Below, piece by piece: positions 3,609 to 16,714 of a stretch of 16,714 bases of DNA. The position numbers were made by a program, and so were the translations under genes. Below the pieces are notes generated by a model that worked only from the letters and a program-made list of their open reading frames with translations, had not been told where the DNA came from and did no database searches. This DNA comes from a virus. Taxonomy: Duplodnaviria > Heunggongvirae > Uroviricota > Caudoviricetes. Location: the IMG/VR virus record IMGVR_UViG_2541047860_000004; one strand, 5' to 3'. The first letter of the stretch is position 1; each line of letters begins with the position of its first letter.

Positions 3609-3633
3609 TTGTAATTACAAATGTCATTACAAG
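3609..3633 (-). promoter_or_regulatory. relO-type operator repeats upstream of relB
   Basis: Perfect 12-bp palindrome TTGTAATTACAA at 3609-3620, then ATGTCATTACAAG at 3621-3633, just upstream of the relB start at 3596. Matches the hexad-repeat operator known for RelB/RelE autoregulation. Confidence 0.6.
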
Positions 3634-3926
3634 TATCGCACTACAACATGCTTAGGGCAAGTCACGAAGGAAGTCAGAAAGTAGTCGTAAGAACGGTGAT
3701 CACTGTCCGCTTTGTGCCAGGAGCAGCCATTGCTAAGTCCATCCTGTATTGTGCAGGTCAGCTCGTTTTTAAAAAGTCCGGCCATCATCTTACTGGTACA
3801 GACACCATATACTTTGTGACGGTCAGGCTACATATGCACAACTCAACTTATTCATCTATTTTTTGCTTTAGCATGTCAGTGTTGCTTTCTCGTCGGCGGG
3901 TGAGCGGTGACCTGACCTGTCGATAA
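3621..3926 (+). CDS. ydfV: YdfV-like hypothetical protein (101 aa)
   Basis: ATG ORF divergent from relB, in the position of ydfV in Qin. The start overlaps the relO operator and no family is recognisable, so it may not be a real gene. Confidence 0.3.
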   Translation: MSLQVSHYNMLRASHEGSQKVVVRTVITVRFVPGAAIAKSILYCAGQLVFKKSGHHLTGTDTIYFVTVRLHMHNSTYSSIFCFSMSVLLSRRRVSGDLTCR

Positions 3927-4078
3927 AGGAACGTAACACGTTTTATGCAACACCCGCATGCGGCAGAAAATTATTGCCGAACGTTTACCCCTGTCAACAA
4001 GCTTTACTTTCTGAGGCGCGCCAGCCCGCGAGGAAAACAATCTGAACATCAAACAATTAATGACACAAGAAATACGAT

Positions 4079-4105
4079 TAAAGATTTTTTTGTGCATGCC
4101 GATAG
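4079..4105 (+). promoter_or_regulatory. Sigma-28 (FliA) class promoter of flxA
   Basis: TAAAGATT at 4079-4086, 11-nt spacer, GCCGATAG at 4098-4105, against the consensus TAAAGTTT-N11-GCCGATAA. Lies about 24 nt upstream of the flxA start; AGGAG ribosome-binding site at 4118-4122. Confidence 0.8.
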
Positions 4106-4128
4106 TGCTTTTTTAAAAGGAGAAATCT

Positions 4129-4461
4129 ATGTCTGTCACAATTCAGGGAAATACCTCAACCGTTATTTCAAACAACTCCGCCCCGGAAGGAACATCAGAA
4201 ATAGCCAAAATCACAAGACAAATTCAGGTGCTGACTGAAAAGCTTGGGAAAATCTCATCGGAAGAGGGGATGACGACACAGCAGAAAAAAGAAATGGCTG
4301 CATTGGTACAGAAGCAAATTGAAAGCCTCTGGGCTCAACTGGAGCAGTTGTTAAGGCAGCAGGCAGAGAAAAAGAATGAAGACGCGACAGTTCAGCCTGA
4401 TAAAAAAGAAGAGAAAAAAGACGATACAAATACCGCTGGCACCATTGATATTTACGTCTAA
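4129..4461 (+). CDS. flxA: FlxA, FliA-regulated protein (110 aa)
   Basis: ATG ORF with AGGAG upstream; hydrophilic coiled-coil-like protein with lysine/glutamate-rich tail; recognised as flxA of Qin, preceded by the sigma-28 promoter. Confidence 0.9.
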   Translation: MSVTIQGNTSTVISNNSAPEGTSEIAKITRQIQVLTEKLGKISSEEGMTTQQKKEMAALVQKQIESLWAQLEQLLRQQAEKKNEDATVQPDKKEEKKDDTNTAGTIDIYV

Positions 4462-4475
4462 GTGACAGCCGTATT

Positions 4476-4498
4476 GTGGCCCTCATCGGGCCACTTTT
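4476..4498 (+). terminator. Rho-independent terminator after flxA
   Basis: Stem GTGGCCC (4476-4482), loop TCATC, stem GGGCCAC (4488-4494), then TTTT (4495-4498); 15 nt after the flxA stop. Confidence 0.6.
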
Positions 4499-4859
4499 CG
4501 CCATCAGCCTTTTCTTTAAAGACATATTATCTTTGTATCATTTCTGATAGTTAACATTACAAGATATAAGTAATGGACGCACTCCCAATTAGTCTATTTA
4601 AATCGCCACGAGTTTAACTGACAACCCATGATCAATTATGAATTGCAACTATTTCTGTAGTCACTTTTGTGGGGACAGTCCACAAAACTGCCAACTTCCG
4701 CTTCTTGCTCTTAGCGGACATTAGCATAGGCTATTTACCATAACGCCTCATTACGCGCACCGCCCAGACTGACTCAGCGCGTTTCTGGCATATCCCCGGT
4801 AAAACAAGTAACAAACCACCCGAAAATGAACACCAGAAACGCGACTTAAGAATCTACCC

Positions 4860-6330
4860 TATGAATGGATATGCACTCAACCGAATCGATCTTGGTTTCA
4901 ATCTTTTTTATCGGGATCAGGCTTCTTTTTAGGTAACTTCGGGGGCTTAACTTGCTGATGACTTTGCGTTCGGCGCGTAAGCCAGGGATGGTCAGCTTTA
5001 GGTTTAACATAGTATTTTGAGCGTAAATCAATACGGGCATTATCCACTCGTTCATGGACACTCTTTTCATCATCCAGTGGTATAGGCTCCGGGCCATCAA
5101 CATACTTTTCCCAGCCCAGCGCTTTCCCGTCATACAGAACGTTAATTTCACCGTCAAAGTTCTCGCATACAGTAACAACCGAATGCCTAAGTCGATATCC
5201 CCGGCCCTCACTGCGTACCTGAAACGCACTGCTTTTGTACTGGAAAGTGAGATTTTTAGACAGAACGCGCTTCGCCTGTAGGCTGAAGATATAACCCAGT
5301 TCCTCTTCAGAATGGTGCACATCAAGATGAGCATTATCAGTAGTACGAGGCGACGTAGCGAACCGGTTGTTATAGGCTTCAATAAAGGTCGGCAACCATG
5401 CATTTGCTGTTTCAATATCACTGATATTCTGAAGCCGCATTTCTTTGACCAGCCTGTCCTGTAGTGTCTGATTGGCGCGCTCTACCCGCCCTTTTGCCTG
5501 CGGGCTGTTGGCATGGATTGGCTCGATGCCCAGTGTCTTTATCGCACGAGTGAACTGGGTCAGCTCACCTTCCCGCTCTGGGTTATTTACCCTGAATATA
5601 CTGTGTCTATCAGAGTAGAGAGCGAGCGGTACGCCATGATCATTAAGGTAACCCCGGAGGGTTTCCATGTAAGCCCGGGTTGTTTCAGCAGGCACAAAAC
5701 GCAACGCCATCAACGCACTGGTGGCATCATCAATGAAAACGATCAGTGTACATCTGGGGCCTCGATTTTCAAACCAGTCATGAGGTGAGCCATCAATCTG
5801 GATCAGTTCACCGTAAGATGGTCGTCGCATGCGGCGTTGATATATACGGGCAATTTTACGACGGCGTTCACGCCATAACCCCTCTTCTATCATCCACTTT
5901 CTGAGAGTTTCAACGGATAAAGATAAACCGTGTATCTCGCGCAATTTTTCGCACGCAAACGTAGGTCCAAAATCAGCGTAACGGCCTTTGAGGAGTGAAA
6001 TTACTGTTGCTCTGAATTCAGTAGAAAAGGAATTATTAGGACGCTTTCCACGTCGGTGGGAAACCAGACCAGAAGGCCCTTCATTTCTATACCGTTGCAC
6101 CAGACGTTTAACCTGCCGAATAGAAATGCCAATGCGTGCCGCAGCTTGTTCCTGAATAATCTGAAGTCGATGGAGTTCCTTATGACTCATCGTAACAGTC
6201 TCTTTGATCATGAAAAATCCCCCAGAGAATTGTCTGGGGACATTTTAGAATGGTTCAAAGGGGACATTACAGCTTGGTGTTAACAATAGCCTGCTTCTCC
6301 GTGCCTTTCGGCACGTAAGAGGCTAACCTA
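4860..6330 (-). mobile_element. Insertion element carrying the rve-type transposase (boundaries approximate)
   Basis: Transposase ORF flanked by non-coding sequence; the K-12 Qin arrangement as I recall it has no such gene between flxA and dicC. I could not identify terminal inverted repeats or target-site duplications by eye. Confidence 0.4.
4898..6211 (-). CDS. DDE transposase, rve (integrase-core) type with N-terminal helix-turn-helix (437 aa)
   Basis: ATG at 6211 (alternative ATG at 6190). N-terminal HTH-like segment (GISIRQVKRLVQRY), then DDE-like residues (IQIDGS..., LYSDRHSIF, and the E-x6-R signature in PQAKGRVERANQTL) and a basic C-terminal tail. Single long ORF suggests an IS481/ISNCY-like element; family not resolved. 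Confidence 0.8.
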   Translation of the reverse strand: MIKETVTMSHKELHRLQIIQEQAAARIGISIRQVKRLVQRYRNEGPSGLVSHRRGKRPNNSFSTEFRATVISLLKGRYADFGPTFACEKLREIHGLSLSVETLRKWMIEEGLWRERRRKIARIYQRRMRRPSYGELIQIDGSPHDWFENRGPRCTLIVFIDDATSALMALRFVPAETTRAYMETLRGYLNDHGVPLALYSDRHSIFRVNNPEREGELTQFTRAIKTLGIEPIHANSPQAKGRVERANQTLQDRLVKEMRLQNISDIETANAWLPTFIEAYNNRFATSPRTTDNAHLDVHHSEEELGYIFSLQAKRVLSKNLTFQYKSSAFQVRSEGRGYRLRHSVVTVCENFDGEINVLYDGKALGWEKYVDGPEPIPLDDEKSVHERVDNARIDLRSKYYVKPKADHPWLTRRTQSHQQVKPPKLPKKKPDPDKKD

Positions 6331-6545
6331 CATGTGTCTAGCATGAAATTGGCCTCAGATTAATGTTAAGCGTCTTGCAGGACGCGTAATGTTAACTGGG
6401 GCTTTTCTCTATCTGCCGTTGGTGTCCATGCCCGAGGCAGATAGCCTCAAGCACCCGCAGTCATTCTACTTAACTAAGATTTCCCCGCAAACCGTTTTTG
6501 TCCAGCACAGTAAATATCCAACTAAACCAATGGAGTTCGCTGTAT

Positions 6546-6725
6546 TTACCGCCAGTATTCAATGCACATGACCGCCATGAACACCCCTAAAAAAAGGGCA
6601 TTTATATATCCAAATATTAATATCAAAACATCAACTTTTTCCATATACCTTGCTGTGAAGATGATGGGCATACATGATGCGAACAACCAGAACGCAACAA
6701 ACAAAAACTGCAATGCGTTTTTCAT
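6546..6725 (-). CDS. Candidate small hydrophobic protein (59 aa, two predicted transmembrane segments)
   Basis: ATG at 6725 preceded by a perfect AGGAGG (6730-6735, 4-nt spacing). Product MKNALQFLFVAFWLFASCMPIIFTARYMEKVDVLILIFGYINALFLGVFMAVMCIEYWR is strongly hydrophobic. AT-rich region; no homolog recognised. Confidence 0.25.
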   Translation of the reverse strand: MKNALQFLFVAFWLFASCMPIIFTARYMEKVDVLILIFGYINALFLGVFMAVMCIEYWR

Positions 6726-6979
6726 TATTCCTCCTACAATCAATGTGCAATTACATTTAAACACACCTCAATTTGGCCGGACATATAAATATCTAAACCA
6801 GAAAAAATCACTTACATAGCGTTACAAACTCTTTAGTCTAAAGGTTCATCGTAAAACATTCCCCATACTTATCAGTCCGTTCCGCGCCAGGTAGCTCATT
6901 GCCTTATCTGGCAACCTGTAATCAGGTTTCCGCTTTTTCAGTTGGCTGGTCGTTTAACCGACATAGTTAATCCATTAAT

Positions 6980-7267
6980 CTAGTTGCCGGATGTTGGTGG
7001 ATTTTCGCGTTTTAGTTGTTCATAAAAGTGCACAGCTTTAACCAGTTCTTCTGATGTAACTGGGACTGGTGAGGCAGTGAATAAGGCCTGAATTTGATAG
7101 TTCGGCCTGTCGTTACAATCCTCTTTTTTCGGTACATATTTCCAGTCACCAGACCACTACTTCCCCTGAAAGTCCGTAACGCCTTTTTTCACGTAGCGAT
7201 ATCGCCATGCCACTGGTTTTGCTTGCCCCGCCGTTTCATGCCCTTCCTGATAATTAATCTCGCTCAT
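6980..7267 (-). pseudogene. Decayed ORF interrupted by an in-frame amber codon
   Basis: Minus strand reads MSEINYQEGHETAGQAKPVAWRYRYVKKGVTDFQGK, TAG at 7157-7159, then 58 more sense codons (WSGDWKYVPKKEDCNDRPNYQ...ENPPTSGN) to TAG at 6980-6982. Upstream short ORFs (7270-7620) are frame-shifted relative to it. Confidence 0.3.
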
Positions 7268-7878
7268 TCATCGCCCCACTCATCACAATATGCTTCGACC
7301 GGAGTTTTTCCCGCTTCATAGTCATCACGCTAGGATTCGACATCAGCAGCACTTCCACCGCGTAACTCACCATAGTCCATTAATAGTTCATCCCGCTCTT
7401 CAAAACTGATGTTATATTTAGCTGAACAAAAATCAGCCACTTTGTTCTTCCTCATCGTCTTTTATTTCGTGGTATGAGTAATTGCAGTAGTTAAAGAAAA
7501 TTTCTTATGCTCCGTCATGAATTTCCTCAGGTGTTGCGTCATCGTCCACTTCGAATACATCCTCAAAATCTCCACCAGCTATTCCCGTTTCAATAATAAT
7601 TTTGAACTTTCGCATTTCACTACCGCCCTTTCGGGCGGCCTCCTGATGTTCTGAGGGTGCAGAAATCCATCCGGTTAAGGATTAAATTTTATTTACAGAA
7701 CTGAATTTAATTATTCAGATATACGTATCTGTAGCCTTACGAATCTACTCACTGGATGCCTCTTTCATAAAAATAATCCAGTGGGTTTTATCGTTTTTTC
7801 CCCTGTTCGTTGACAGATAACAGGTTTTCTGTCTGTCAGTGCCAGAATCTGGCTTACCGGTATTTGCGTTTCATTCCA

Positions 7879-8235
7879 TTAAAAAATCAGAACGCCGTGC
7901 GGCCTCAACACCCGAAAGGCTTCTTTAAATCTCTGTCGCGAATCATCACGCCAGGCATCTTTATTCAGCCGTCCATATTTCTTTCCCATCCAGGCGTTAT
8001 CACCAACACTCTCAAGATGCGGAGGGTCTAATACAACCATCGAAAAAGATGCGTCTGCAAATGATAATGCACGAAAATCTGCGATAATGTCAGGGCTGAT
8101 AATCAAGCGTCTCCCATTGCGTAATGTGTATCCTTCTTTTCTGATATCGCTGAATATCGCCCGTTCGTCAGACTTATCGAACCAGAACATGCGGCTGCCA
8201 CAGCACATATCAAGAATGGTTGCCGGTGCACTCAC
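7879..8235 (-). CDS. Class I SAM-dependent methyltransferase-like protein, probably truncated (118 aa)
   Basis: Rossmann-fold methyltransferase motifs in order: motif I ILDMCCGS, post-I FADASFSMVVLD, motif III-like LRPHGVLIF. The ORF stops right after motif III, so the C-terminal part of the fold is missing. Start is GTG overlapping the upstream stop (GTGA). Confidence 0.45.
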   Translation of the reverse strand: MSAPATILDMCCGSRMFWFDKSDERAIFSDIRKEGYTLRNGRRLIISPDIIADFRALSFADASFSMVVLDPPHLESVGDNAWMGKKYGRLNKDAWRDDSRQRFKEAFRVLRPHGVLIF

Positions 8236-8654
8236 TGCGCCACGTCCTGAAAATTACCCTGATAGAAAGCCAGTATGCGCTGCATAACTTCGCTCTTCCG
8301 GCACTCGCGACAGATTATGTTTAGGCGACTGTCGTAGCGACGTATTTCTCCGTCAGGTGATGACCAGATAAGGTCCGGATCAACCACAGCAGGTTTCTTC
8401 ACCTTTGCCCTCGAGAGTTTTTTGCGGGCGTTTTGCCAGTCCTTACGCGCCTGTTCAGAGGGGAATAACCCGTAGCCGGAGTTGTATACATCGCCACTGG
8501 CTACCAGCTCTCTGGCAAGAACGCTCATCAGATATCTAGTCGCACCTGTTTTAGCTTCCAGTTGCCGTAACGTCTCACGGCCGCTCTGGCGCACGAGTTC
8601 CACCACCTGCCATTTAATTTTTTCCCGCTCTTCTTGTGTAAAAACTTTTGCCAC
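8232..8654 (-). CDS. Hypothetical protein (140 aa) upstream of the methyltransferase-like ORF
   Basis: GTG start at 8654 with AAGGGGG 4 nt upstream; stop overlaps the next ORF start. Basic, with a CRECRK motif; no family recognised. Could be the N-terminal part of a frame-shifted larger gene. Confidence 0.4.
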   Translation of the reverse strand: MAKVFTQEEREKIKWQVVELVRQSGRETLRQLEAKTGATRYLMSVLARELVASGDVYNSGYGLFPSEQARKDWQNARKKLSRAKVKKPAVVDPDLIWSSPDGEIRRYDSRLNIICRECRKSEVMQRILAFYQGNFQDVAQ

Positions 8655-8694
8655 AAGTCCCCCTTAAAATTACCTCATGACCTGAAATCAACAC

Positions 8695-9660
8695 TTATCC
8701 TCTGAAACCAGGCGGAATTTCTGTATCCGGTTCAGAAATATGATTAACACAACGCTGTACAGGTGAACGTCCCAGGCGGATGACCAGTTCGTCCCATTTT
8801 TCGCGGAGCTTTGACGGGCTCATGATGTTTTTTACCCAGAATGGATCTCGCTGAACCCGACCAAACATTTCGCAAATTTGTCTGTGGCTTCTGCCATCCA
8901 GCATCCGCATTGTGCGCACGTCATTGGCCCAGGCAGTCCAGTTAGGCTCTTTTGGTCGCATGATCTCGCCATCATCACTGGCTGCCTGTTCGTAGAGACC
9001 CACGATCCGCCCCCAGATCCACTGCGCACACGCCAAATCCTCCCTGCTACCCCACTGGCGTTTTTTCGCACTAAACACAACCGCGTCGGAGTTCCGGGTT
9101 AAAAAATCCTGTTCAGTCGTCTGCGGGTCCGGTTGCGAAGCTTCCGGACGAAAAGTGTTTTTATTCTCTGTAGTAATCTCTGTTGTATTCTCTGTAAGAT
9201 CATCAGGCCATTTTGACCCGATGACATTGGGTCGTTTTGAACCAATGGAGCGTTTCATTTTGACCTCTTCCATCGTGTCATTTTGACCTGATGGAGCGGC
9301 GCATTTTGAACCGATGGATTCGCTCAATTTGCCACCATCTAAAAGCTCGCTCCCATAGTTGATCGTGTAGAAATTGGTCATATCGCGCTTTGATTTATTG
9401 AGCTTTTCACAACGCAAAAGCCCCAGCGTTTTCAGACTTGCAAACGCGCGCTTTAACGTTGACTCTGACCAGAATGGGAACTGTTCCAGCCATTGTTCCG
9501 TTGTGTTATAAATCCAGCGAACACCATCACATTCCATGCCGGAGTTGGTATCTCTCAACCAGTAGTGCAGTTGTTGCAAAACAATGGCTTCGTTTAAGCC
9601 AATTTTCATTGCCAGCTGCGTGTTTATAACCAGTGGGCGTTCAGCAAAAAGAAGGCTCAT
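8695..9660 (-). CDS. Lambda O-like replication initiator protein
   Basis: Track ORF 8695..9714 begins with TTG; first ATG at 9660. Sits in the O position after the cro/cII-like genes. The coding sequence contains five regularly spaced iterons that encode repeated SIGSK peptide motifs, as in lambda O where ori lies inside the gene. Confidence 0.65.
   Translation of the reverse strand: MSLLFAERPLVINTQLAMKIGLNEAIVLQQLHYWLRDTNSGMECDGVRWIYNTTEQWLEQFPFWSESTLKRAFASLKTLGLLRCEKLNKSKRDMTNFYTINYGSELLDGGKLSESIGSKCAAPSGQNDTMEEVKMKRSIGSKRPNVIGSKWPDDLTENTTEITTENKNTFRPEASQPDPQTTEQDFLTRNSDAVVFSAKKRQWGSREDLACAQWIWGRIVGLYEQAASDDGEIMRPKEPNWTAWANDVRTMRMLDGRSHRQICEMFGRVQRDPFWVKNIMSPSKLREKWDELVIRLGRSPVQRCVNHISEPDTEIPPGFRG
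9209..9317. repeat. Iteron array (putative prophage origin) inside the O-like gene
   Basis: Five copies of CATTTTGA(A)CC(N)ATGG with the TTTTGA core starting at 9211, 9235, 9258, 9281 and 9304 (spacing 24, 23, 23, 23 bp). Flanked at 9150-9205 by an AT-rich stretch with repeated TTCTCTGTA. Confidence 0.65.
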
Positions 9661-10162
9661 AATTCCATCCAGCTTTTTGTTGGTATTGCTGTCGATACGC
9701 AAGTTTGAAAGCAATTGCTTTTTCTATAAGTTCGTCAGTTTCACGATCCACTACGGCAGGATCAGCAAAAAGCAGTCCGGACTCCACCACATCGCCATAT
9801 TCTTTGTTTAACCCGGCGATCATGCACGTGATGCTTTTTCCGTCAGTAATTTCACGATACAACCTGAAATCATTAATCCGGATAGCCTCCATAATTGCAG
9901 GCACTAGCGCCGTGAACTTTTCACGCTTATCCCTGGTGTCGATAGCCTTCCAGCGTTCAAATATCTTCACTCGATTAACGCCAAGCGCTCGCTGATCAAT
10001 CGCGCCACCTTCATATGTGACACGCTGAACATCGATGTTCGGGCGCTCTTTCAAAGCCCAGAATGCTTCAGTGATTAATATCGTCGCCTGCTCCTGTGTC
10101 ATTCCTGGTCGACATATCCAGGCATCCAGAGCCTCACGAGCCTGTTCAGGAGTGATTTTCAT
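9641..10162 (-). CDS. Hypothetical regulatory protein in the cII position (173 aa)
   Basis: ATG at 10162, overlapping the dicC stop by 17 nt; the 3' end overlaps the O-like start. No family recognised with confidence. Confidence 0.5.
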   Translation of the reverse strand: MKITPEQAREALDAWICRPGMTQEQATILITEAFWALKERPNIDVQRVTYEGGAIDQRALGVNRVKIFERWKAIDTRDKREKFTALVPAIMEAIRINDFRLYREITDGKSITCMIAGLNKEYGDVVESGLLFADPAVVDRETDELIEKAIAFKLAYRQQYQQKAGWNYEPSFC

Positions 10163-10376
10163 TGTTCAACCGCCCCGCCCGCTTCGTCTTACGATATTCA
10201 TCATAAACTTTGGGATCATACTGAAGCTCCCCGCCAGATGCCTCCTGTAGACGCATCGCGCGACCTTCGGGAACTAAATCCCCTTTCCAGCTATAAAGCG
10301 AAGCCAAACGAATACCTGCTGCTTGTGCAAGTTTTGTTTTTGAACCGAAATACAAAAGAGCGTCAGTTTTAAGCAT
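10146..10376 (-). CDS. dicC: DicC, Cro-like repressor (76 aa)
   Basis: ATG at 10376 with AAGGTG upstream; product MLKTDALLYFGSKTKLAQAAGIRLASLYSWKGDLVPEGRAMRLQEASG... has a helix-turn-helix and is divergent from dicA, as in the Qin immunity region. Confidence 0.85.
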   Translation of the reverse strand: MLKTDALLYFGSKTKLAQAAGIRLASLYSWKGDLVPEGRAMRLQEASGGELQYDPKVYDEYRKTKRAGRLNNENHS

Positions 10377-10390
10377 TTAAAACACCTTTA

Positions 10391-10455
10391 TTGTTAGTCA
10401 TAACTAACAAGATAGATGTTAACAAAAACATAGTCAATACGATTTAGCATTAGCT
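10391..10455. promoter_or_regulatory. Candidate DicA/DicC operator sites in the dicC-dicA intergenic region
   Basis: Palindrome TTGTTAGT-CATA-ACTAACAA at 10391-10410 and TTAGCTAACTA at 10445-10455 overlapping the dicA start; related TGTTAG(T/C)(C/T)AT motifs recur at 10902-10917 and 10939-10948. Confidence 0.4.
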
Positions 10456-10459
10456 AACT

Positions 10460-10867
10460 ATGGAAACAAAAAATTTAACTATCGGCGAACGCATCAGGTA
10501 TCGTCGGAAAAACCTCAAACACACCCAAAGGTCTCTTGCTAAAGCCCTGAAAATCTCCCATGTGTCTGTATCACAATGGGAACGGGGTGATAGTGAACCT
10601 ACAGGGAAGAACCTTTTTGCCCTCAGCAAAGTATTGCAATGCTCACCAACATGGATTCTATTTGGCGATGAAGACAAGCAACCAACACCACCTGTTGAGA
10701 AGCCAGTTGCCTTATCCCCCAAAGAACTAGAGCTCCTTGAGCTGTTTAATGCACTGCCAGAATCAGAACAGGATACCCAGCTCGCCGAAATGCGAGCTCG
10801 AGTAAAAAACTTCAATAAACTCTTTGAAGAATTACTAAAAGCCCGTCAGCGGACAAATAAAAGATAA
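10460..10867 (+). CDS. dicA: DicA, cI-like helix-turn-helix repressor (135 aa)
   Basis: Product METKNLTIGERIRYRRKNLKHTQRSLAKALKISHVSVSQWERGDSEP... is an XRE-type HTH repressor recognised as DicA; divergent from dicC and upstream of the dicB operon. Confidence 0.9.
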   Translation: METKNLTIGERIRYRRKNLKHTQRSLAKALKISHVSVSQWERGDSEPTGKNLFALSKVLQCSPTWILFGDEDKQPTPPVEKPVALSPKELELLELFNALPESEQDTQLAEMRARVKNFNKLFEELLKARQRTNKR

Positions 10868-10927
10868 CATCATCAATGAGTTATCTTTTACCACATCAAT
10901 TATGTTAGCTATAGCATACAAAATCAC

Positions 10928-10956
10928 TTGACCGATATGTTAGTCATGGCTAATCT
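10928..10956 (+). promoter_or_regulatory. Candidate sigma-70 promoter of the ydfABC-dicF-dicB operon
   Basis: TTGACC at 10928-10933, 17-nt spacer, TAATCT at 10951-10956. The spacer contains the operator-like motif TGTTAGTCAT. About 80 nt upstream of ydfA. Confidence 0.4.
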
Positions 10957-11033
10957 TGTTTGCATCAACACACCGCACGGTGTTCTCAGCAAACAGTTCC
11001 GCTACCCCAGCGTTAAGGGGAAATGAGGTCAGC

Positions 11034-11189
11034 ATGGATACTATCGATCTTGGCAACAACGAATCTCTGGTGTACGGCGTGTTTCCAAACCAGGACGGCA
11101 CGTTCACCGCAATGACGTATACCAAAAGCAAAACGTTTAAAACCGAAAATGGTGCCCGTCGCTGGCTGGAAAGAAACTCAGGTGAGTGA
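11034..11189 (+). CDS. ydfA: YdfA (51 aa), first gene of the dicB operon
   Basis: Internal ATG at 11034 of track ORF 10956..11189, with GAGG upstream; product MDTIDLGNNESLVYGVFPNQDGTFTAMTYTKSKTFKTENGARRWLERNSGE. Confidence 0.8.
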   Translation: MDTIDLGNNESLVYGVFPNQDGTFTAMTYTKSKTFKTENGARRWLERNSGE

Positions 11190-11190
11190 T

Positions 11191-11319
11191 ATGGATTTCG
11201 ACACAATCATGGAAAAGGCTTACGAAGAATACTTCGAAGGCCTTGCCGAAGGCGAAGAAGCTCTCAGCTTCAGTGAGTTTAAACAGGCGCTTTCCAGTTC
11301 GGCAAAATCTAACGGCTGA
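11191..11319 (+). CDS. ydfB: YdfB (42 aa)
   Basis: ATG 1 nt after the ydfA stop; hand translation MDFDTIMEKAYEEYFEGLAEGEEALSFSEFKQALSSSAKSNG, then TGA. Below the ORF-track cutoff. Confidence 0.7.
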   Translation: MDFDTIMEKAYEEYFEGLAEGEEALSFSEFKQALSSSAKSNG

Positions 11320-11348
11320 TAAGCGAAACAGCACCGCGAGGAATCAGT

Positions 11349-11567
11349 ATGCAGAAACGAGAACCCGTCATCATCGCGCCAGACTATACCGATGATGAAC
11401 TTTATGAGTGGATGCGCCAGAAAATTAATGCAGCGCAGGATCTGAAATGGGCTAATGAAGCCAGGGCTAAGCAGGCTGAAAATCTGTCCGCTCTGGAGCA
11501 GGATATCACCAATCTGGAAAAAGCAGCGGCATTAAGCATTGCCAGAATGATTACATACCCGCGTTAG
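11349..11567 (+). CDS. ydfC: YdfC (72 aa)
   Basis: ATG ORF MQKREPVIIAPDYTDDELYEWMRQKINAAQDLKWANEARAKQAENLSALEQDITNLEKAAALSIARMITYPR in operon order after ydfB. Confidence 0.8.
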   Translation: MQKREPVIIAPDYTDDELYEWMRQKINAAQDLKWANEARAKQAENLSALEQDITNLEKAAALSIARMITYPR

Positions 11568-11907
11568 TAGCTAATCAACAAAGCTAAGGTTAGTAATTAA
11601 GGAGTTCTCCACGGGTGAGGTGGAGTGCGTGCGCCGGACACGGGTGCGCATCCGGAACTGACAGTTTACTGAAAGGATATTTCCCTGAAAAGTCAGACCA
11701 TAACGCGAAAGCGCACGGCGAGGTAGCTGGTTCATAGATAGCCTGTCGTTAAATTTTCGTCGACCGTGCGCTTCCGGTTGTGGCAACCCGCGAAATGGCG
11801 CGGCGGTAAGTATGGCGGGGTTATTCCTTCCCCGTTGAGGACACCGGGTTGTCAGGTTGACCATACGCTTAAGTGACAACCCCGCTGCAACGCCCTCTGT
11901 TATCAAT

Positions 11908-11965
11908 TTTCTGGTGACGTTTGGCGGTATCAGTTTTACTCCGTGACTGCTCTGCCGCCCTTTTT
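11908..11965 (+). ncRNA. dicF: DicF small regulatory RNA (about 53 nt plus U-tail)
   Basis: TTTCTGGTGACGTTTGGCGGTATCAGTTTTACTCCGTGACTGCTCTGCCGCCC followed by TTTTT, recognised as DicF; lies between ydfC and dicB with a GGCGG...CCGCC terminal hairpin. Confidence 0.85.
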
Positions 11966-12134
11966 AAAGTGAATTTTGTGATGTGGTGAATGCGGCTGAG
12001 CGCACGCGGAACAGTTAAAACCAAAAACAGTGTTATGGGTGGATTCTCTGTATCCGGCGTTAATTGTTAACTGGTTAACGTCACCTGGAGGCACCAGGCA
12101 CTGCATCACAAAATTCATTGTTGAGGACGCGATA

Positions 12135-12323
12135 ATGAAAACGTTATTACCAAACGTTAATACGTCTGAAGGTTGTTTTGAAATTGGTGTCACTATCAGT
12201 AACCCAGTATTTACTGAAGATGCCATTAACAAGAGAAAACAAGAACGGGAGCTATTAAATAAAATATGCATTGTTTCAATGCTGGCTCGTTTACGTCTGA
12301 TGCCAAAAGGATGTGCACAATGA
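12135..12323 (+). CDS. dicB: DicB cell-division inhibitor (62 aa)
   Basis: Internal ATG at 12135 with GAGGA upstream inside track ORF 12030..12323; product MKTLLPNVNTSEGCFEIGVTISNPVFTEDAINKRKQERELLNKICIVSMLARLRLMPKGCAQ. Fits the known in-phase internal translation start of dicB. Confidence 0.9.
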   Translation: MKTLLPNVNTSEGCFEIGVTISNPVFTEDAINKRKQERELLNKICIVSMLARLRLMPKGCAQ

Positions 12324-12511
12324 ATTCAGCATTTGTGCTTGTTCTGACAGTTTTTCTTGTTTCCGGAGAGCCAGTTGATATTGCAGTCAGTGTTCACAGG
12401 ACAATGCAGGAGTGTATGACTGCAGCAACCGAACAGAAAATTCCCGGTAACTGTTACCCGGTCGATAAAGTTATTCACCAGGATAATATCGAAATCCCGG
12501 CAGGTCTTTAA
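12320..12511 (+). CDS. ydfD: YdfD small membrane protein (63 aa)
   Basis: ATG at 12320 overlaps the dicB stop (ATGA); product MNSAFVLVLTVFLVSGEPVDIAVSVHRTMQECMTAATEQKIPGNCYPVDKVIHQDNIEIPAGL has an N-terminal hydrophobic segment. Confidence 0.8.
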   Translation: MNSAFVLVLTVFLVSGEPVDIAVSVHRTMQECMTAATEQKIPGNCYPVDKVIHQDNIEIPAGL

Positions 12512-12603
12512 AACAGTTCCGTAATAAATATCCGGTTTCATTCTTATATGCCAGCAATGGCAGGGATTTGTTCATCCTTAAATCTGTCATGAGGTTAAAA
12601 CAA

Positions 12604-15075
12604 ATGAGTAAAGTCTTTATTTGCGCCGCTATTCCTGACGAACTGGCAACAAGGGAAGAAGGCGCTGTGGCTGTAGCCACAGCCATTGAAGCTGGCGACG
12701 AACGCCGTGCTCGAGCAAAATTTCACTGGCAATTCCTGGAACATTATCCGGCTGCTCAGGACTGCGCTTATAAATTTATTGTCTGCGAGGATAAACCTGG
12801 CATACCCCGCCCTGCCCTCGATTCATGGGATGCTGAATATATGCAGGAAAACCGCTGGGATGAGGAGTCTGCTTCTTTTGTCCCGGTTGAGACTGAATCC
12901 GATCCGATGAACGTCACTTTTGACAAGCTGGCCCCTGAAGTACAGAACGCTGTCATGGTTAAGTTCGACACATGTGAAAACATCACCGTTGATATGGTTA
13001 TTAGCGCACAGGAATTGTTGCAGGAAGACATGGCAACATTCGACGGACATATCGTTGAAGCGTTGATGAAAATGCCAGAAGTTAACGCCATGTATCCGGA
13101 GCTTAAGTTGCACGCCATTGGGTGGGTTAAGCATAAATGTATTCCTGGTGCTAAATGGCCCGAAATTCAGGCAGAGATGCGCATCTGGAAAAAACGTCGC
13201 GAAGGTGAACGCAAGGAAACCGGAAAATACACGTCTGTTGTTGATCTCGCCCGCGCCAGAGCCAATCAACAGTACACTGAAAATTCAACAGGAAAAATCA
13301 GCCCGGTCATTGCTGCCATTCATCGCGAATACAAGCAGACATGGAAAACACTGGATGACGAACTGGCCTACGCTCTCTGGCCTAGTGATGTGGATGCCGG
13401 AAACATTGACGGCAGCATCCATCGCTGGGCAAAAAAAGAAGTTATCGACAACGACCGCGAAGACTGGAAGCGTATCTCGGCATCAATGCGCAAACAGCCT
13501 GATGCCCTTCGCTACGACCGCCAAACTATTTTTGGCCTTGTCCGTGAGCGTCCGATCGACATTCACAAAGATCCCGTAGCACTGAACAAATATATCTGCG
13601 AATACCTGACGACAAAGGGCGTGTTTGAGAATGAAGAAACAGACCTGGGCACTGTTGATGTTCTCCAGTCATCAGAAACACAAACTGATGCAGTGGAAAC
13701 TGAGGTATCTGATATCCCAAAAAATGAAACCGCGCCGGAAGCTGAACCATCTGTAGAGCGTGAGGGGCCGTTCTATTTCCTCTTCGCAGATAAGGACGGA
13801 GAAAAATACGGTCGCGCAAACAAACTCTCTGGTCTGGATAAGGCACTGGCTGCTGGCGCCACTGAAATCACAAAAGAAGAATATTTTGCCCGAAAAAATG
13901 GCACATACACGGGCTTACCGCAAAATGTAGATACCGCTGAAGATTCAGAACAACCAGAGCCGATAAAAGTTACCGCTGACGAAGTAAACAAAATTATGCA
14001 GGCAGCCAATATCAGCCAGCCTGACGCCGATAAGTTGCTTGCTGCATCACGTGGTGAATTTGTTGAAGGGATTAGTGACCCGAATGATCCGAAATGGGTT
14101 AAGGGGCTCCAGACCCGCGATTCTGTGAACCAGAACCAGCATGAATCGGAACGGAACTACCAAAAAGCGGAACAAAACAGTCCAAATGCGTTACAAAACG
14201 AGCCAGAAACGAAACAGCCTGAACCAGTAGCGCAACAGGAAGTGGAAAAAGTCTGCACCGCCTGCGGTCAGACCGGCGGCGGCAACTGCCCTGATTGTGG
14301 CGCGGTGATGGGCGACGCAACATACCAAGAAACATTCGATGAAGAGTATCAGGTTGAAGTTCAGGAAGATGATCCGGAGGAAATGGAAGGCGCTGAACAT
14401 CCACACAAGGAGAACACTGGCGGCAATCAGCATCACAATAGCGATAATGAAACTGGCGAGACGGCAGATCACCCAATTAAGGTGAACGGTCATCACGAAA
14501 TCACATCCACCAGCAGGACGTGTGACCATCTAATGATCGACCTTGAAACCATGGGAAAAAATCCTGATGCCCCGATCATCTCAATAGGTGCAATATTTTT
14601 CGATCCGCAAACCGGAGATATGGGACCGGAATTTAGTAAGACTATCGATCTGGAAACTGCTGGCGGAGTCATTGATCGGGACACCATTAAATGGTGGCTT
14701 AAGCAATCACGCGAAGCGCAATCGGCCATTATGACCGATGAAATCCCGTTAGATGATGCACTGTTACAATTGCGGGAATTTATCGACGAAAACTCCGGTG
14801 AATTTTTTGTTCAGGTTTGGGGAAATGGAGCCAACTTCGACAACACGATTTTGCGCCGTTCATACGAACGGCAGGGGATCCCCTGCCCGTGGCGTTACTA
14901 CAACGATCGCGATGTACGCACAATCGTTGAGCTGGGGAAAGCCATAGACTTCGATGCCAGAACGGCTATTCCATTCGAAGGTGAGCGCCATAATGCACTT
15001 GATGACGCCCGTTACCAGGCAAAATACGTTTCAGTTATCTGGCAAAAACTGATCCCGAGTCAGGCTGATTCTTAA
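12604..15075 (+). CDS. YdfE-like large prophage protein (823 aa) with C-terminal DEDDh-type 3'-5' exonuclease domain
   Basis: Track ORF begins with TTG at 12568; the ATG at 12604 has GAGG 8 nt upstream. Unknown N-terminal domain of about 350 aa, acidic low-complexity linker, zinc ribbon CTACGQTGGGNCPDCG (about 14254-14301), then an exonuclease domain with motifs IDLET, WGNGANFD and HNALDDA (about 14521-15072). Confidence 0.8.
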   Translation: MSKVFICAAIPDELATREEGAVAVATAIEAGDERRARAKFHWQFLEHYPAAQDCAYKFIVCEDKPGIPRPALDSWDAEYMQENRWDEESASFVPVETESDPMNVTFDKLAPEVQNAVMVKFDTCENITVDMVISAQELLQEDMATFDGHIVEALMKMPEVNAMYPELKLHAIGWVKHKCIPGAKWPEIQAEMRIWKKRREGERKETGKYTSVVDLARARANQQYTENSTGKISPVIAAIHREYKQTWKTLDDELAYALWPSDVDAGNIDGSIHRWAKKEVIDNDREDWKRISASMRKQPDALRYDRQTIFGLVRERPIDIHKDPVALNKYICEYLTTKGVFENEETDLGTVDVLQSSETQTDAVETEVSDIPKNETAPEAEPSVEREGPFYFLFADKDGEKYGRANKLSGLDKALAAGATEITKEEYFARKNGTYTGLPQNVDTAEDSEQPEPIKVTADEVNKIMQAANISQPDADKLLAASRGEFVEGISDPNDPKWVKGLQTRDSVNQNQHESERNYQKAEQNSPNALQNEPETKQPEPVAQQEVEKVCTACGQTGGGNCPDCGAVMGDATYQETFDEEYQVEVQEDDPEEMEGAEHPHKENTGGNQHHNSDNETGETADHPIKVNGHHEITSTSRTCDHLMIDLETMGKNPDAPIISIGAIFFDPQTGDMGPEFSKTIDLETAGGVIDRDTIKWWLKQSREAQSAIMTDEIPLDDALLQLREFIDENSGEFFVQVWGNGANFDNTILRRSYERQGIPCPWRYYNDRDVRTIVELGKAIDFDARTAIPFEGERHNALDDARYQAKYVSVIWQKLIPSQADS

Positions 15076-15086
15076 TGTTCAACTGT

Positions 15087-15118
15087 CGCCGGTTGTGACT
15101 GGTATTCTGCAACCGGCG
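15087..15118 (+). other. Stem-loop between the YdfE-like gene and xis
   Basis: Perfect 9-bp inverted repeat CGCCGGTTG (15087-15095) and CAACCGGCG (15110-15118) with a 14-nt loop; no T-run follows, so not a canonical terminator. Confidence 0.3.
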
Positions 15119-15147
15119 CTCGTCTGATGTAAGAGATAAAGAAATCG

Positions 15148-15399
15148 ATGAGCGAAGTAATCATGATTGTCTCTCCCGGCAAATGGGTATCCGAAGAGCA
15201 GTTAATTGCGCTGAAAGGAATAAAAAAAGGTACGTTAAAAAAGGCCCGGGAAAAATCGTTTATGGAAGGAAGGGAATATAAGCATGTCGCTCATGACGGT
15301 ATGCCATGGGATAACAGTCCATGCTTTTACAACCTGGAAGAAATTGATCGCTGGATTGAGCGCCAGGCATCAGCAAGACCAAGACGTCATCTTACTTGA
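15148..15399 (+). CDS. Excisionase-like protein (83 aa)
   Basis: Small basic ORF immediately upstream of the integrase gene on the same strand. Ribosome-binding site is weak and the start is uncertain (alternative ATG at 15163). Confidence 0.65.
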   Translation: MSEVIMIVSPGKWVSEEQLIALKGIKKGTLKKAREKSFMEGREYKHVAHDGMPWDNSPCFYNLEEIDRWIERQASARPRRHLT

Positions 15400-15433
15400 C
15401 TAAAAGCCACACTAACTAATGAGAGAAGTTGAA

Positions 15434-16714
15434 ATGAAATATCCGACAGGCGTGGAAAACCATGGAGGGAAATTACGTATCTGGTTTGTTTATAAAGGCG
15501 TAAGAGTCAGGGAAAACCTGGGGGTTCCTGACACAGCAAAAAACAGGCGCGTTGCAGGTGAGCTACGCGCCTCTGTTTGTTACGCAATAAAAACTGGTGT
15601 TTTCGACTATGCAAAACAGTTTCCCTCCTCACGCAATCTGGAAAAATTTGGTGAGACTCGACAAGATTTAACCATAAAAGAACTGGCTGAAAAATTTCTG
15701 GCACTGAAAGAAACTGAAGTCGCAAAAACATCACTCAACACATACCGTGCCGTCATCAAAAATATCCTGAGCATAATCGGTGAAAAAAATCTTGCCTCAT
15801 CGATTAATAAAGAAAAATTACTGGAGGTTCGTAAAGAGCTACTGACTGGATACCAGATCCCCAAAAGTAACTATATTGTTACACAACCAGGGAGATCGGC
15901 TGTAACTGTAAATAATTACATGACAAATCTTAACGCCGTGTTCCAGTTTGGTGTTGATAACGGTTACTTGGCAGATAACCCGTTTAAGGGGATCTCGCCA
16001 TTAAAGGAATCAAGAACCATTCCGGATCCTCTTTCGCGGGAGGAATTCATCCGTCTTATCGATGCGTGCAGAAATCAGCAAGCCAAAAATTTATGGTGTG
16101 TTTCTGTTTATACTGGCGTTCGCCCTGGTGAGCTGTGTGCACTTGGATGGGAGGACATAGATCTGAAAAATGGAACAATGATGATCAGGAGAAATTTAGC
16201 AAAAGACCGTTTCACGGTACCAAAAACACAGGCGGGAACCAATCGGGTCATTCATCTTATTAAGCCAGCAATCGACGCTCTCCGGAGTCAGATGACATTA
16301 ACGAGACTGAGCAAAGAGCATATCATTGATGTTCACCTCAGAGAGTATGGCAGAACAGAAAAACAAAAATGCACCTTTGTTTTTCAACCTGAAGTGTCAG
16401 CGAGAGTAAAAAATTATGGTGACCATTTTACCGTTGACTCAATAAGGCAGATGTGGGACGCAGCGATAAAACGTGCCGGACTCCGCCATCGAAAATCATA
16501 TCAGTCGAGACATACTTATGCCTGCTGGTCGCTGACAGCTGGTGCTAATCCGGCATTTATAGCAAACCAGATGGGCCATGCAGATGCGCAAATGGTATTT
16601 CAGGTATACGGAAAATGGATGTCTGAAAACAATAATGCACAGGTAGCTTTGTTAAATACACAGTTAAGCGAGTTTGCCCCAACCATGCCCCATAACGAAG
16701 CAATGAAAAATTAA
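15434..16714 (+). CDS. Phage integrase, tyrosine recombinase family (426 aa)
   Basis: Track ORF begins at ATG 15419; the ATG at 15434 has a better purine-rich upstream region. Catalytic residues in the expected order: R in GVRPGEL, H-x-x-R in SRHTYA, and MGHAD...VYGKW with the presumed catalytic Tyr. The stop codon is the last triplet of the window. Confidence 0.9.
   Translation: MKYPTGVENHGGKLRIWFVYKGVRVRENLGVPDTAKNRRVAGELRASVCYAIKTGVFDYAKQFPSSRNLEKFGETRQDLTIKELAEKFLALKETEVAKTSLNTYRAVIKNILSIIGEKNLASSINKEKLLEVRKELLTGYQIPKSNYIVTQPGRSAVTVNNYMTNLNAVFQFGVDNGYLADNPFKGISPLKESRTIPDPLSREEFIRLIDACRNQQAKNLWCVSVYTGVRPGELCALGWEDIDLKNGTMMIRRNLAKDRFTVPKTQAGTNRVIHLIKPAIDALRSQMTLTRLSKEHIIDVHLREYGRTEKQKCTFVFQPEVSARVKNYGDHFTVDSIRQMWDAAIKRAGLRHRKSYQSRHTYACWSLTAGANPAFIANQMGHADAQMVFQVYGKWMSENNNAQVALLNTQLSEFAPTMPHNEAMKN

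What the first reader, a model, noticed from the sequence alone, without database searches (positions are those of the whole stretch)
12604..15075. Intact 823-aa YdfE-like protein with a DEDDh 3'-5' exonuclease domain in the recombination-gene position
This protein sits where lambda carries exo/bet, between the dicB operon and xis-int. It has no adjacent annealase (Bet, RecT, Erf or Sak-like) gene. Its nuclease domain carries DnaQ-like motifs (IDLET, WGNGANFD, HNALDDA), not the lambda-exo-type fold expected of a 5'-3' recombination exonuclease. The roughly 350-residue N-terminal domain and the acidic linker with a CxxC...CxxC zinc ribbon are of unknown function. In K-12, as I recall, the corresponding gene is a pseudogene, so an intact copy is a good handle on what this protein does.
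Basis: partly seen in the sequence, partly recalled or inferred. Interest (0 to 1): 0.6.

Follow-up and report, generated by a model that had tools for sequence, protein, structure and literature searches.

The report
RecE-like scaffold carrying 3'-5' exonuclease
This is the intact form of the E. coli prophage gene ydfE: a very common but unstudied phage protein that joins the non-catalytic body of the RecE recombination protein to a DnaQ/DexA-type 3'-5' exonuclease, with no annealing-protein partner.

Summary
An 823-aa ORF (12604-15075, +) lies between dicB-ydfD and xis-int of a Qin-type lambdoid prophage. Its C-terminus is a DEDDh exonuclease (Pfam Rv2179c-like, 2.4e-67) with all five catalytic residues. 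K-12 ydfE is the same gene, cut by IS2 after codon 256.

The match stops where RecE's 5'-3' nuclease begins, so this is a RecE-family scaffold with a swapped head. In sister proteins the same scaffold carries a RecE-type nuclease (RecT follows), a Rad52-type annealase (Sipho_Gp157 follows) or an unknown domain. The DEDDh form is followed directly by xis. A complete phage with a 99.7%-identical copy has no recognisable annealase. A 56%-identical standalone nuclease sits inside phage epsilon34's Erf-SSB-nuclease-Abc2 module.

Best reading (about 0.5): a lytic-phase 3'-5' DNA exonuclease, tethered by a recombination scaffold, that trims DNA ends. Main rival: an EcD/DexA-like nuclease that excludes phages with modified DNA.

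The gene is in about 65% of complete E. coli genomes and is annotated "exonuclease". Pfam has YdfE_N, and a 2025 paper noted DnaQ-type nucleases near int. It is a new variant of a known kind, of moderate interest.

The parts
12604..15075 (+). Whole CDS: intact YdfE-type exonuclease, 823 aa
   Evidence: PHROG 2082 full length; RefSeq WP_000048342.1 'exonuclease' at the same place in strain cq9
12591..12594 (+). Shine-Dalgarno GAGG, 9 nt before the ATG. No sigma-70-like + strand promoter lies in the 92-nt gap after ydfD, so the gene reads as part of the dicB (early-left) operon.
12604..12903 (+). YdfE_N part 1: alpha/beta domain (aa 1-100)
12916..13218 (+). YdfE_N part 2: helical domain (aa 105-205), followed by a disordered basic stretch (aa 203-243)
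   Evidence: dN/dS 0.08 over aa 1-245
13336..13632 (+). RecE-like helical domain (aa 245-343), shared with Rac RecE and with all scaffold variants
   Evidence: dN/dS 0.15
13759..13914 (+). Small conserved 'GPFY...GRANK...EIT.EEY.ARKNG' alpha/beta unit (aa 386-437). It is present in the other YdfE_N-headed variants read (PD-(D/E)XK type P0128, several annealase-type proteins, unknown-head P0126). It has no counterpart in the alignment to K-12 RecE.
   Evidence: AF2 pLDDT about 80; dN/dS 0.05; sequences; RecE alignment
14017..14484 (+). Low-complexity acidic region highly similar to RecE aa 452-592, ending exactly at the RecE nuclease-domain boundary (aa 472-627)
   Evidence: dN/dS 0.35-0.67 and low pLDDT, so mostly disordered
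14254..14298 (+). CxxC-x7-CxxC zinc-ribbon motif (C551, C554, C562, C565), conserved in RecE
14527..15042 (+). DEDDh 3'-5' exonuclease domain (aa 642-813). Catalytic residues are D646, E648, D746, H796 and D801.
   Evidence: Pfam 2.4e-67; aligns to T4 DexA (PDB 8KEL) D7/E9/D119; H796/D801 are inferred to match DexA H186/D191 from the H-x4-D motif, because the printed alignment ends at DexA 162; motifs invariant in 7 divergent homologues; 56% identical to epsilon34 gp34
11909..12511 (+). Upstream operon members: DicF sRNA (11909-11960), dicB (12135-12323), ydfD (12320-12511)
15148..16714 (+). Downstream genes: excisionase (15148-15399) and integrase (15419-16714). No gene lies between the exonuclease and xis.

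Best explanation
The protein is a member of the RecE family by its scaffold but not by its catalytic head. It is a lytic-phase DNA-end-processing enzyme. It is made from the DicA-repressed early-left (dicB) operon when the prophage is induced or the phage infects. Its C-terminal DEDDh domain removes nucleotides 3'-to-5' from free 3'-OH ends by two-metal catalysis (D646, E648, D746, D801, with H796 as general base). The N-terminal 640 residues act as the same targeting or assembly platform that in sister phages carries a RecE 5'-3' nuclease or a Rad52-type annealase. These residues comprise the YdfE_N alpha/beta and helical domains, the RecE-like helical domain, the small GPFY unit, and an acidic disordered linker with a zinc ribbon. 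The platform brings the nuclease to recombination or replication intermediates of phage DNA. Because these phages have no annealase and no RecBCD inhibitor but do carry Chi sites, the enzyme most likely serves host-dependent (RecBCD/RecA) recombination. It could do this by trimming 3' tails or flaps, or by blunting ends so that RecBCD can load. It would not drive a Red/RecET-type single-strand-annealing reaction. Shown here: the domain identities, the catalytic residues, the mosaic architecture, the partner pattern, the operon position, purifying selection, and the absence of an annealase. Inferred: the DNA substrate, the polarity, the expression timing, the scaffold's role, and the link to RecBCD.
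For: The DEDDh domain and its catalytic residues are established. The only solved relative found by sequence is T4 DexA, a DNA exonuclease that takes part in intron-homing break repair. The RecE-like middle ends at RecE's nuclease boundary. The scaffold combines with several heads. A RecE-type N-terminus plus DEDDh occurs in phage 640R1 and in P0124. YdfE_N plus PD-(D/E)XK is immediately followed by RecT. YdfE_N plus a Rad52-like annealase is followed by Sipho_Gp157; 42 of 55 homologues of that head hit PF04098, best E 2e-6. The DEDDh form is followed directly by xis in every record checked. No annealase is recognisable in the complete phage HannyBb. Epsilon34 gp34 is 56% identical to this domain and lies between SSB and Abc2, next to Erf. 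PMC12315714 accepts that gene as a Rec-module member. Chi sites are present: 6 in the window and 7 in HannyBb, against about 0.3 and 0.7 expected per strand. That fits the 'no Rec module, Chi-rich, RecBCD-aided' class of PMC12315714. There is purifying selection on every folded module.
Against: No experiment exists on this protein. 3'-5' exonucleases usually inhibit recombination, as PMC12315714 itself remarks. The same paper declines to count DnaQ-type genes near int as Rec-module genes, because they often coexist with a separate canonical module. The Chi count is not above the E. coli genome average (my knowledge: about 1 per 4.6 kb; 3 in 11 kb of the adjacent host DNA). The scaffold has no informative structural relative, so its 'platform' role rests on fusion patterns alone. 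The nearest characterised E. coli homologue, EcD, was reported as an anti-T4 defence nuclease.
Confidence: 0.5

Rival explanations
1. It is an exclusion or defence nuclease of the EcD/'HREX' type. The DexA-like domain would selectively degrade hydroxymethylcytosine-containing (T-even) or otherwise modified DNA of competing phages, protecting the lysogen or the induced cell.
For: Kang et al. 2025 (PMC12153337) report that an E. coli DexA homologue, EcD, digests the T4 genome but not unmodified dsDNA and protects cells from T4. They say Escherichia holds 38% of the bacterial DexA homologues, and most of those are probably this prophage gene family. EcD starts at the codon equivalent to Met644. 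From my own knowledge, the dicB operon already has a phage-exclusion activity through DicB.
Against: EcD is a different, free-standing paralogue; its 3' end matches none of the loci examined. The DexA W152 position, which the paper says is needed for 5hmC DNA, is Tyr766 here and is W, R or S in close relatives. DexA D90, which is lost in EcD, is retained here as D718. The gene sits in a repressor-controlled lytic operon with no promoter of its own detected. This reading explains neither the RecE scaffold nor the epsilon34 Rec-module homologue.
Confidence: 0.22
2. It is a 3'-5' exoribonuclease like the Pfam family's namesake, M. tuberculosis Rv2179c. It would act on RNA, for example by processing or turning over early-operon transcripts, sRNAs or host RNAs.
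For: The best Pfam family is named for an RNase. PGAP labels some copies '3'-5' exoribonuclease domain-containing protein'. The gene lies in an operon that produces a processed sRNA, DicF.
Against: The only solved relative detectable by sequence is the DNase DexA. The characterised E. coli homologue EcD is a DNase. All fusion partners and neighbours of the scaffold and of the domain are DNA-recombination proteins.
Confidence: 0.1
3. It scavenges host DNA for nucleotides during lytic growth, as in T4 DexA's other role.
For: Homology to DexA. The paper describes host-DNA scavenging by DexA.
Against: From my own knowledge, temperate lambdoid phages are not known to degrade the host chromosome. 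An exonuclease needs ends, and no endonuclease partner is present in the operon. This reading does not explain the scaffold.
Confidence: 0.05
4. It is a decaying, functionless remnant carried along in cryptic prophages.
For: The K-12 copy is a pseudogene. Split or frameshifted copies exist. The prophage in the window carries an IS element and pseudogenes.
Against: The gene is intact in isolated phages (PhiR42_1, HannyBb, Tritos, mEp460, Evi). dN/dS is 0.05-0.15 on the folded modules. The catalytic motifs are invariant. Thousands of genomes hold intact copies.
Confidence: 0.03

Closest known systems
Rac prophage RecE (exonuclease VIII, K-12 b1350)
   Same: Same position in the early-left operon, upstream of xis-int. 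The non-catalytic middle region is homologous, including the zinc ribbon and acidic linker (aa 262-627 against RecE 278-592, 2e-61). The size is similar, about 820-870 aa. Some relatives (640R1, P0124) also share RecE's N-terminus.
   Different: RecE's C-terminal PD-(D/E)XK 5'-3' nuclease is absent and is replaced by a DEDDh 3'-5' domain. The first 245 aa here are the YdfE_N type. No recT follows. The NCBIfam ExoVIII model scores 282 bits against a cutoff of 1269. The database name 'exodeoxyribonuclease VIII' for these proteins is therefore a misnomer.
Salmonella phage epsilon34 gp34 and other about 190-aa standalone lambdoid DnaQ-type nucleases (PY54 gp51, ST64B-type, PhiR47_1, 118970_sal3)
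   Same: 53-59% identical to aa 641-823, with the same catalytic motifs. They are encoded in the early-left operon. Epsilon34 gp34 lies within an Erf-SSB-nuclease-Abc2 module.
   Different: They are free-standing single-domain proteins. Here the domain is fused to a 640-aa RecE-type scaffold, and the phage lacks Erf, SSB and Abc2.
Phage T4 DexA (exonuclease A; PDB 8KEL/8KEN)
   Same: The only solved structure detectable by sequence (E 5.5e-8 for the domain). It has the DEDDh fold, and DexA D7/E9/D119 align. It is a 3'-5' DNA exonuclease with a role in break repair during intron homing.
   Different: Identity is low. DexA has extra loops, is a 227-aa standalone protein of a virulent phage, and switches between dimer and tetramer. 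W152 is Tyr here.
E. coli EcD / 'HREX' defence nuclease (GenBank HAK9828821.1; Kang et al., NAR 2025)
   Same: An E. coli DexA-like DEDDh protein that starts at the equivalent of Met644 (MIDTET against MIDLET).
   Different: It is a distinct sequence that I could not retrieve. It is standalone. Its reported function is defence against T4. The diagnostic residues differ or cannot be aligned.
M. tuberculosis Rv2179c (namesake of Pfam PF16473)
   Same: Same Pfam family.
   Different: It is a chromosomal bacterial 3'-5' exoribonuclease with no scaffold and no phage context. It was not detected in the PDB sequence search at E<=1, so it is a distant relative.

Membership tests
DEDDh (DnaQ-like) exonucleases, Pfam PF16473 Rv2179c-like | Pfam score above the gathering threshold | tested here: met
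   226.5 bits against 27, aa 642-813, profile positions 2-177 of 177
DEDDh (DnaQ-like) exonucleases, Pfam PF16473 Rv2179c-like | Exo I D-x-E, Exo II D, Exo III H-x4-D | tested here: met
   D646/E648 and D746 align to DexA D7/E9 and D119. H796/D801 form the H-x4-D motif; their match to DexA H186/D191 is inferred from the motif and spacing, not from a printed alignment. All motifs are invariant in 7 homologues.
DEDDh (DnaQ-like) exonucleases, Pfam PF16473 Rv2179c-like | 3'-5' exonuclease activity and substrate (DNA or RNA) | not testable with these tools
   This needs a nuclease assay of wild type against D646A/E648A.
RecE / exodeoxyribonuclease VIII (NCBIfam NF007259 equivalog) | Whole-protein score above the curated cutoff | tested here: not met
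   281.6 bits against 1269; only model positions 271-600 of 877 match
RecE / exodeoxyribonuclease VIII (NCBIfam NF007259 equivalog) | C-terminal PD-(D/E)XK 5'-3' nuclease domain (RecE 564/606-866; Pfam DUF3799) | tested here: not met
   No alignment beyond RecE residue 592. No DUF3799 hit here, whereas the siblings P0128 and L016 do have one.
RecE / exodeoxyribonuclease VIII (NCBIfam NF007259 equivalog) | Adjacent RecT-type annealase gene | tested here: not met
   xis follows after 72 nt. No annealase is found in the window or in the whole phage HannyBb.
RecE / exodeoxyribonuclease VIII (NCBIfam NF007259 equivalog) | Homologous non-catalytic middle region with zinc ribbon | tested here: met
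YdfE_N (Pfam PF27430) scaffold family | Match to the family | tested here: met
   PF27430.1 and PF27432.1 are precomputed on P0002, which is 100% identical over the queried aa 1-350. The name YdfE_N was seen. The local Pfam copy lacks the model, so this is indirect.
Two-component phage recombinases (lambda Red, RecET; exonuclease plus annealase) | 5'-3' dsDNA exonuclease paired with a single-strand annealing protein | tested here: not met
   The nuclease fold is of the opposite-polarity class, and there is no annealase.
HREX / EcD-type 5hmC-specific defence exonuclease (PMC12153337) | DexA-like catalytic core | tested here: met
HREX / EcD-type 5hmC-specific defence exonuclease (PMC12153337) | Trp at DexA W152 and an acidic residue at D169 (5hmC recognition) | tested here: inconclusive
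   W152 aligns to Tyr766, and this position is W, R or S in close relatives. The alignment stops before D169; an invariant D784 lies nearby.
HREX / EcD-type 5hmC-specific defence exonuclease (PMC12153337) | Loss of the tetramer-forming residues (DexA S87/D90; Ala in EcD) | tested here: inconclusive
   P715 and D718 align here, so the Asp is retained. The alignment in this loop is weak.
HREX / EcD-type 5hmC-specific defence exonuclease (PMC12153337) | Selective digestion of 5hmC DNA and protection from T4 | not testable with these tools
   This needs an experiment.

The most novel reading that the evidence does not exclude
The RecE-type scaffold (YdfE_N or RecE_N, RecE-like helical domain, GPFY unit, acidic zinc-ribbon linker) is a general adaptor. 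It plugs interchangeable DNA-processing heads into one host or phage hub: a 5'-3' nuclease, a 3'-5' nuclease, a Rad52-type annealase, and a fourth unknown domain. The DEDDh-headed version would define an annealase-independent phage recombination strategy that prepares DNA ends for the host RecBCD-Chi-RecA pathway. That would explain how the large 'no Rec module, Chi-rich' class of lambdoid phages manages recombination-dependent growth. It would also give the long-unexplained N-terminal 600 residues of RecE a function.
Probability: 0.2. Interest if true: 0.7.

Novelty: new variant of a known kind. Interest (0 to 1): 0.45.

Why it matters
RecE is a workhorse of recombineering, yet two thirds of the protein has no known function. 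This gene shows that those two thirds form an independently evolving scaffold that phages combine with nucleases of either polarity or with an annealase. That makes the scaffold's role testable through head swaps and partner pull-downs.

The DEDDh form is one of the commonest prophage genes in E. coli, with several copies in many pathogenic strains. Its function is unknown, and it is widely mislabelled 'exodeoxyribonuclease VIII'. Working out whether it aids host-dependent phage recombination or excludes rival phages bears on two things: how Stx-type and other lambdoid prophages replicate and recombine, and the recent EcD/HREX defence claim.

Tried and rejected
1. First AF2 run on aa 1-640 with a shallow alignment failed (pLDDT 40.6). 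A second run on aa 1-350 with a more diverse alignment worked (pLDDT 78).
3. I tried to retrieve EcD. The 23-mer from its reverse primer is absent from the viral contigs, its primers do not match my loci at the 3' end, and a sensitive blastn over the E. coli genomes did not single it out. Its exact relation to this domain stays unquantified.
4. A PDB sequence-profile search with the Rad52-like head gave nothing. The assignment rests on 42 of 55 members hitting Pfam PF04098, on one cluster with a precomputed PF04098 label, and on one UniRef name.
5. The third large homology search, with a profile of divergent N-termini, was swamped by E. coli fragments.
6. Literature searches for ydfE, Rv2179c-like and 'dicB operon' found no functional study. 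One search was wasted because 'RecE' matched 'receptor'.
7. I considered and rejected a hidden annealase among the small or unannotated early genes. They are DUF1391, DicB, YdfD, QueH-like or proteins of unknown function, and none resembles RecT, Erf, Rad52 or Sak.
8. I considered an own promoter or terminator around the gene. Only weak consensus matches were found, fewer than in shuffled sequence.
Full report
**Observation.** The window carries an ORF with ATG at 12604 and a stop ending at 15075 on the + strand. It is 823 aa long and is preceded by a GAGG Shine-Dalgarno. From 217 to 16714 the window is 99.84% identical to a Qin-type lambdoid prophage of E. coli strain cq9. The gene order is ydfT(Q)-ydfU-rem-hokD-relEB-ydfV-flxA ... 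dicC | dicA-ydfA-ydfB-ydfC-DicF-dicB-ydfD-ORF-xis-int. Rfam confirms DicF at 11909-11960. The K-12 ydfE pseudogene equals aa 1-256 at 100% identity and is then cut by IS2E.

**C-terminal domain.** Residues 642-813 match Pfam PF16473 (Rv2179c-like 3'-5' exoribonuclease domain) at 2.4e-67 over the whole profile.
- The only solved structure reachable by sequence is phage T4 DexA (8KEL/8KEN; E 5.5e-8 with the domain alone).
- In that alignment D646, E648 and D746 fall on DexA D7, E9 and D119. H796 and D801 form the H-x4-D motif; I infer that they match DexA H186 and D191, because the printed alignment ends at DexA residue 162.
- The three Exo motifs are invariant in seven homologues down to 53% identity.
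- This is a DEDDh nuclease, not a lambda-Exo/RecE PD-(D/E)XK fold.

The NCBIfam ExoVIII equivalog model matches aa 246-623 at its positions 271-600 of 877, with 282 bits against a cutoff of 1269. BLASTP to K-12 RecE aligns aa 262-627 with RecE 278-592 at 2e-61. By my reading of that alignment, identity is about 80% over aa 472-627, which includes the CxxC-x7-CxxC ribbon and the acidic tracts. The alignment stops where the RecE nuclease domain begins. This explains why many records call the protein 'exodeoxyribonuclease VIII'. The name was transferred through the non-catalytic part and is wrong for the catalytic domain. According to a 2023 review, the RecE N-terminal region has no known function, although full-length RecE improves linear-linear recombination (PMC11611040).

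**A modular scaffold with interchangeable heads.**
- Phage vB_EcoS-640R1 encodes an 813-aa protein. Its first 615 aa are RecE-like (58.6% identity to RecE 50-591) and its C-terminus is this DEDDh domain. P0124 has the same layout.
- A search of 1.84 billion cluster representatives with aa 1-350 found only 171 relatives. Their architectures fall into four classes.
  - Class 1 is DEDDh, as here (PHROG 2082).
  - Class 2 is a RecE-type PD-(D/E)XK nuclease (DUF3799; P0128 and L016).
  - Class 3 has a C-terminal 290 aa that PHROG 7838 labels 'exonuclease' but which is a Rad52/Sak-type annealase. A single sequence hits Rad52_Rad22 at E=0.034, exactly at the KKSLTDA..KAL..LGF motif. Of 55 diverse homologues, 42 hit PF04098 individually, best E 2e-6, and no competing family comes close. 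Free-standing 243-aa versions occur in Pseudomonas; one cluster has a precomputed PF04098 label and one has the UniRef name 'Rad52/22 family'.
  - Class 4 is a head with no Pfam match (P0126, P0216).
- The neighbours follow the head.
  - The PD-(D/E)XK form is followed immediately by a RecT gene (PF03837, 9e-30).
  - The annealase form is followed by Sipho_Gp157.
  - The DEDDh form is followed by xis in the window and in HannyBb, Evi and 640R1.
- The complete 45-kb genome of the isolated phage HannyBb holds a 99.7%-identical gene and encodes no recognisable annealase or RecBCD inhibitor.

**The nuclease also occurs free-standing.** About 190-aa versions, 53-59% identical, are found in PhiR47_1, Salmonella phage 118970_sal3 and Yersinia PY54 (gp51). 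[quoted passage not shown] In Salmonella phage epsilon34, gp34 is 56% identical (1e-71). It lies between the SSB and Abc2 genes, next to Erf. Zheng, Casjens, Davidson, Amundsen and Smith (Genome Res 2025, PMC12315714) accept that arrangement as a genuine Rec-module nuclease.

The same paper makes three other points:
- 'Sporadic' DnaQ-type genes near int are not counted as Rec-module genes.
- 3'-5' exonucleases usually inhibit recombination.
- 'RecE-2' proteins without a nuclease domain exist with unknown role. These may correspond to the annealase-headed or unknown-headed classes found here, but I could not check this because the supplements are not held.

**Structure and selection.** With a more diverse alignment, AlphaFold2 gives a usable model of aa 1-350 (pLDDT 78). 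It shows:
- an alpha/beta domain at aa 1-100;
- a helical domain at aa 105-205;
- a disordered basic stretch at aa 203-243;
- the RecE-like helical domain at aa 245-343.

Against the phage Evi orthologue, dN/dS by region is as follows:

| Region (aa) | Module | dN/dS |
|---|---|---|
| 1-245 | YdfE_N | 0.08 |
| 246-345 | RecE-like domain | 0.15 |
| 346-385 | acidic linker | 0.75 |
| 386-437 | GPFY unit | 0.05 |
| 438-545 | low-complexity region | 0.35 |
| 546-640 | zinc ribbon and acidic linker | 0.67 |
| 641-823 | DEDDh | 0.15 |

dS ranges from 0.16 to 1.13 between segments. The folded modules are therefore functional and the gene is a recombinational mosaic.

**Distribution and prior knowledge.** A copy covering at least 80% of the gene is in 3537 of 5426 complete E. 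coli genomes, with a median of 2 and up to 10 places per genome. The DEDDh domain is in 4113 genomes and in 695 phage records. PGAP names the protein 'exonuclease' or '3'-5' exonuclease'. PHROG 2082 covers it end to end. Pfam now has YdfE_N (PF27430) and PF27432 on it. No paper in the library studies it directly. Kang et al. (NAR 2025, PMC12153337) characterised an E. coli DexA homologue, EcD, as a 5hmC-DNA-specific exonuclease that protects against T4. EcD starts at the equivalent of Met644 but is a different sequence that I could not retrieve. The DexA residue W152, which they find necessary for 5hmC DNA, is Tyr766 here and varies (W, R or S) among close relatives.

**Mechanism.** I commit, at about 0.5, to a lytic-phase DNA-end-processing role. 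The DEDDh head trims 3' ends, and the RecE-type scaffold delivers it to recombination or replication intermediates. Two independent associations support this. First, the scaffold is otherwise fused to a RecE nuclease (with RecT following) or to a Rad52-type annealase. Second, a close homologue of the head sits inside a P22-type Rec module.

These phages lack an annealase and a RecBCD inhibitor but contain Chi sites: 6 in the window and 7 in HannyBb. The enzyme may therefore assist host RecBCD/RecA recombination, for example by blunting 3'-tailed ends so that RecBCD can load. That last step is inference, and the Chi density does not exceed the host average.

The main rival, at about 0.22, is an EcD-like exclusion nuclease. 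An RNase role, host-DNA scavenging and decay into a remnant are less likely, for the reasons given in the rival explanations above.

**Verdict.** I add that the protein is a RecE-family scaffold with a head swap. The gene is common and is annotated generically, and its class was noticed in 2025 genomics papers. It is therefore not categorically new. It is a new variant of a known kind with an open function and a clear experimental path. Interest is 0.45.

Noticed in passing
window 1338, 1390 (top strand) and 1923, 1980 (bottom strand), within or at ydfU (979-2067, - strand); also L008 35321-35963: Four of the window's six Chi octamers cluster in the about 1-kb ydfU (DUF968) gene, in both orientations. 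The same cluster is in phage HannyBb's homologue. About 0.03 would be expected by chance in 1 kb.
   Followed up: partly
window 979-2067 (-), YdfU: The DUF968 protein gives weak hits to HNHc_6 (6.8e-6) and to the P1 Ref-like 'RecA-dependent nuclease' family (4e-3). It is annotated as an HNH endonuclease in HannyBb. It may be a RecA-linked nuclease in a phage that lacks its own recombinase.
   Followed up: no
P0129, P0131, P0155 and others; L017:5001-7367; L012/L013:6682-8467: PHROG 7838 and 2489 'exonuclease' proteins are really a YdfE_N/RecE-like scaffold fused to a Rad52/Sak-type annealase, followed by a Sipho_Gp157 gene. They are likely candidates for the 'RecE-2 proteins lacking a nuclease domain' of Zheng et al. 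2025. In Yersinia enterocolitica the gene is split into 119-aa and 488-aa ORFs.
   Followed up: partly
P0126 (aa 437-697) and P0216; PHROG 26058: A fourth C-terminal head of about 200 aa occurs on the same scaffold. It has no Pfam match, and its function is unknown.
   Followed up: no
window 4898-6211 (-) and 6285-6456 (-): An ISNCY-family transposase ORF lies beside a full-length sok antitoxin RNA (Rfam, 104 bits). Together they interrupt the prophage between flxA/ydfW and the replication genes. RefSeq marks several neighbouring genes as pseudogenes.
   Followed up: no
L006 (Stx2a phage JNE160313) 16-2085: A RecE-N plus DEDDh gene is split into 390-aa and 298-aa ORFs, and the DEDDh part is truncated before the H-x4-D motif. 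This looks like an inactivated copy in an Stx2a-converting phage.
   Followed up: no
window 14507 (bottom strand), aa 635 of the gene: A Chi octamer (CCACCAGC on the + strand) lies inside the gene, just upstream of the DEDDh domain boundary, close to the junction where the head swap occurred.
   Followed up: no
one search hit list: There are hundreds of 'exonuclease, partial' database entries from draft E. coli genomes. These are contig breaks, because several co-resident prophages carry paralogous copies of this gene. The gene is a recurrent assembly breakpoint.
   Followed up: no
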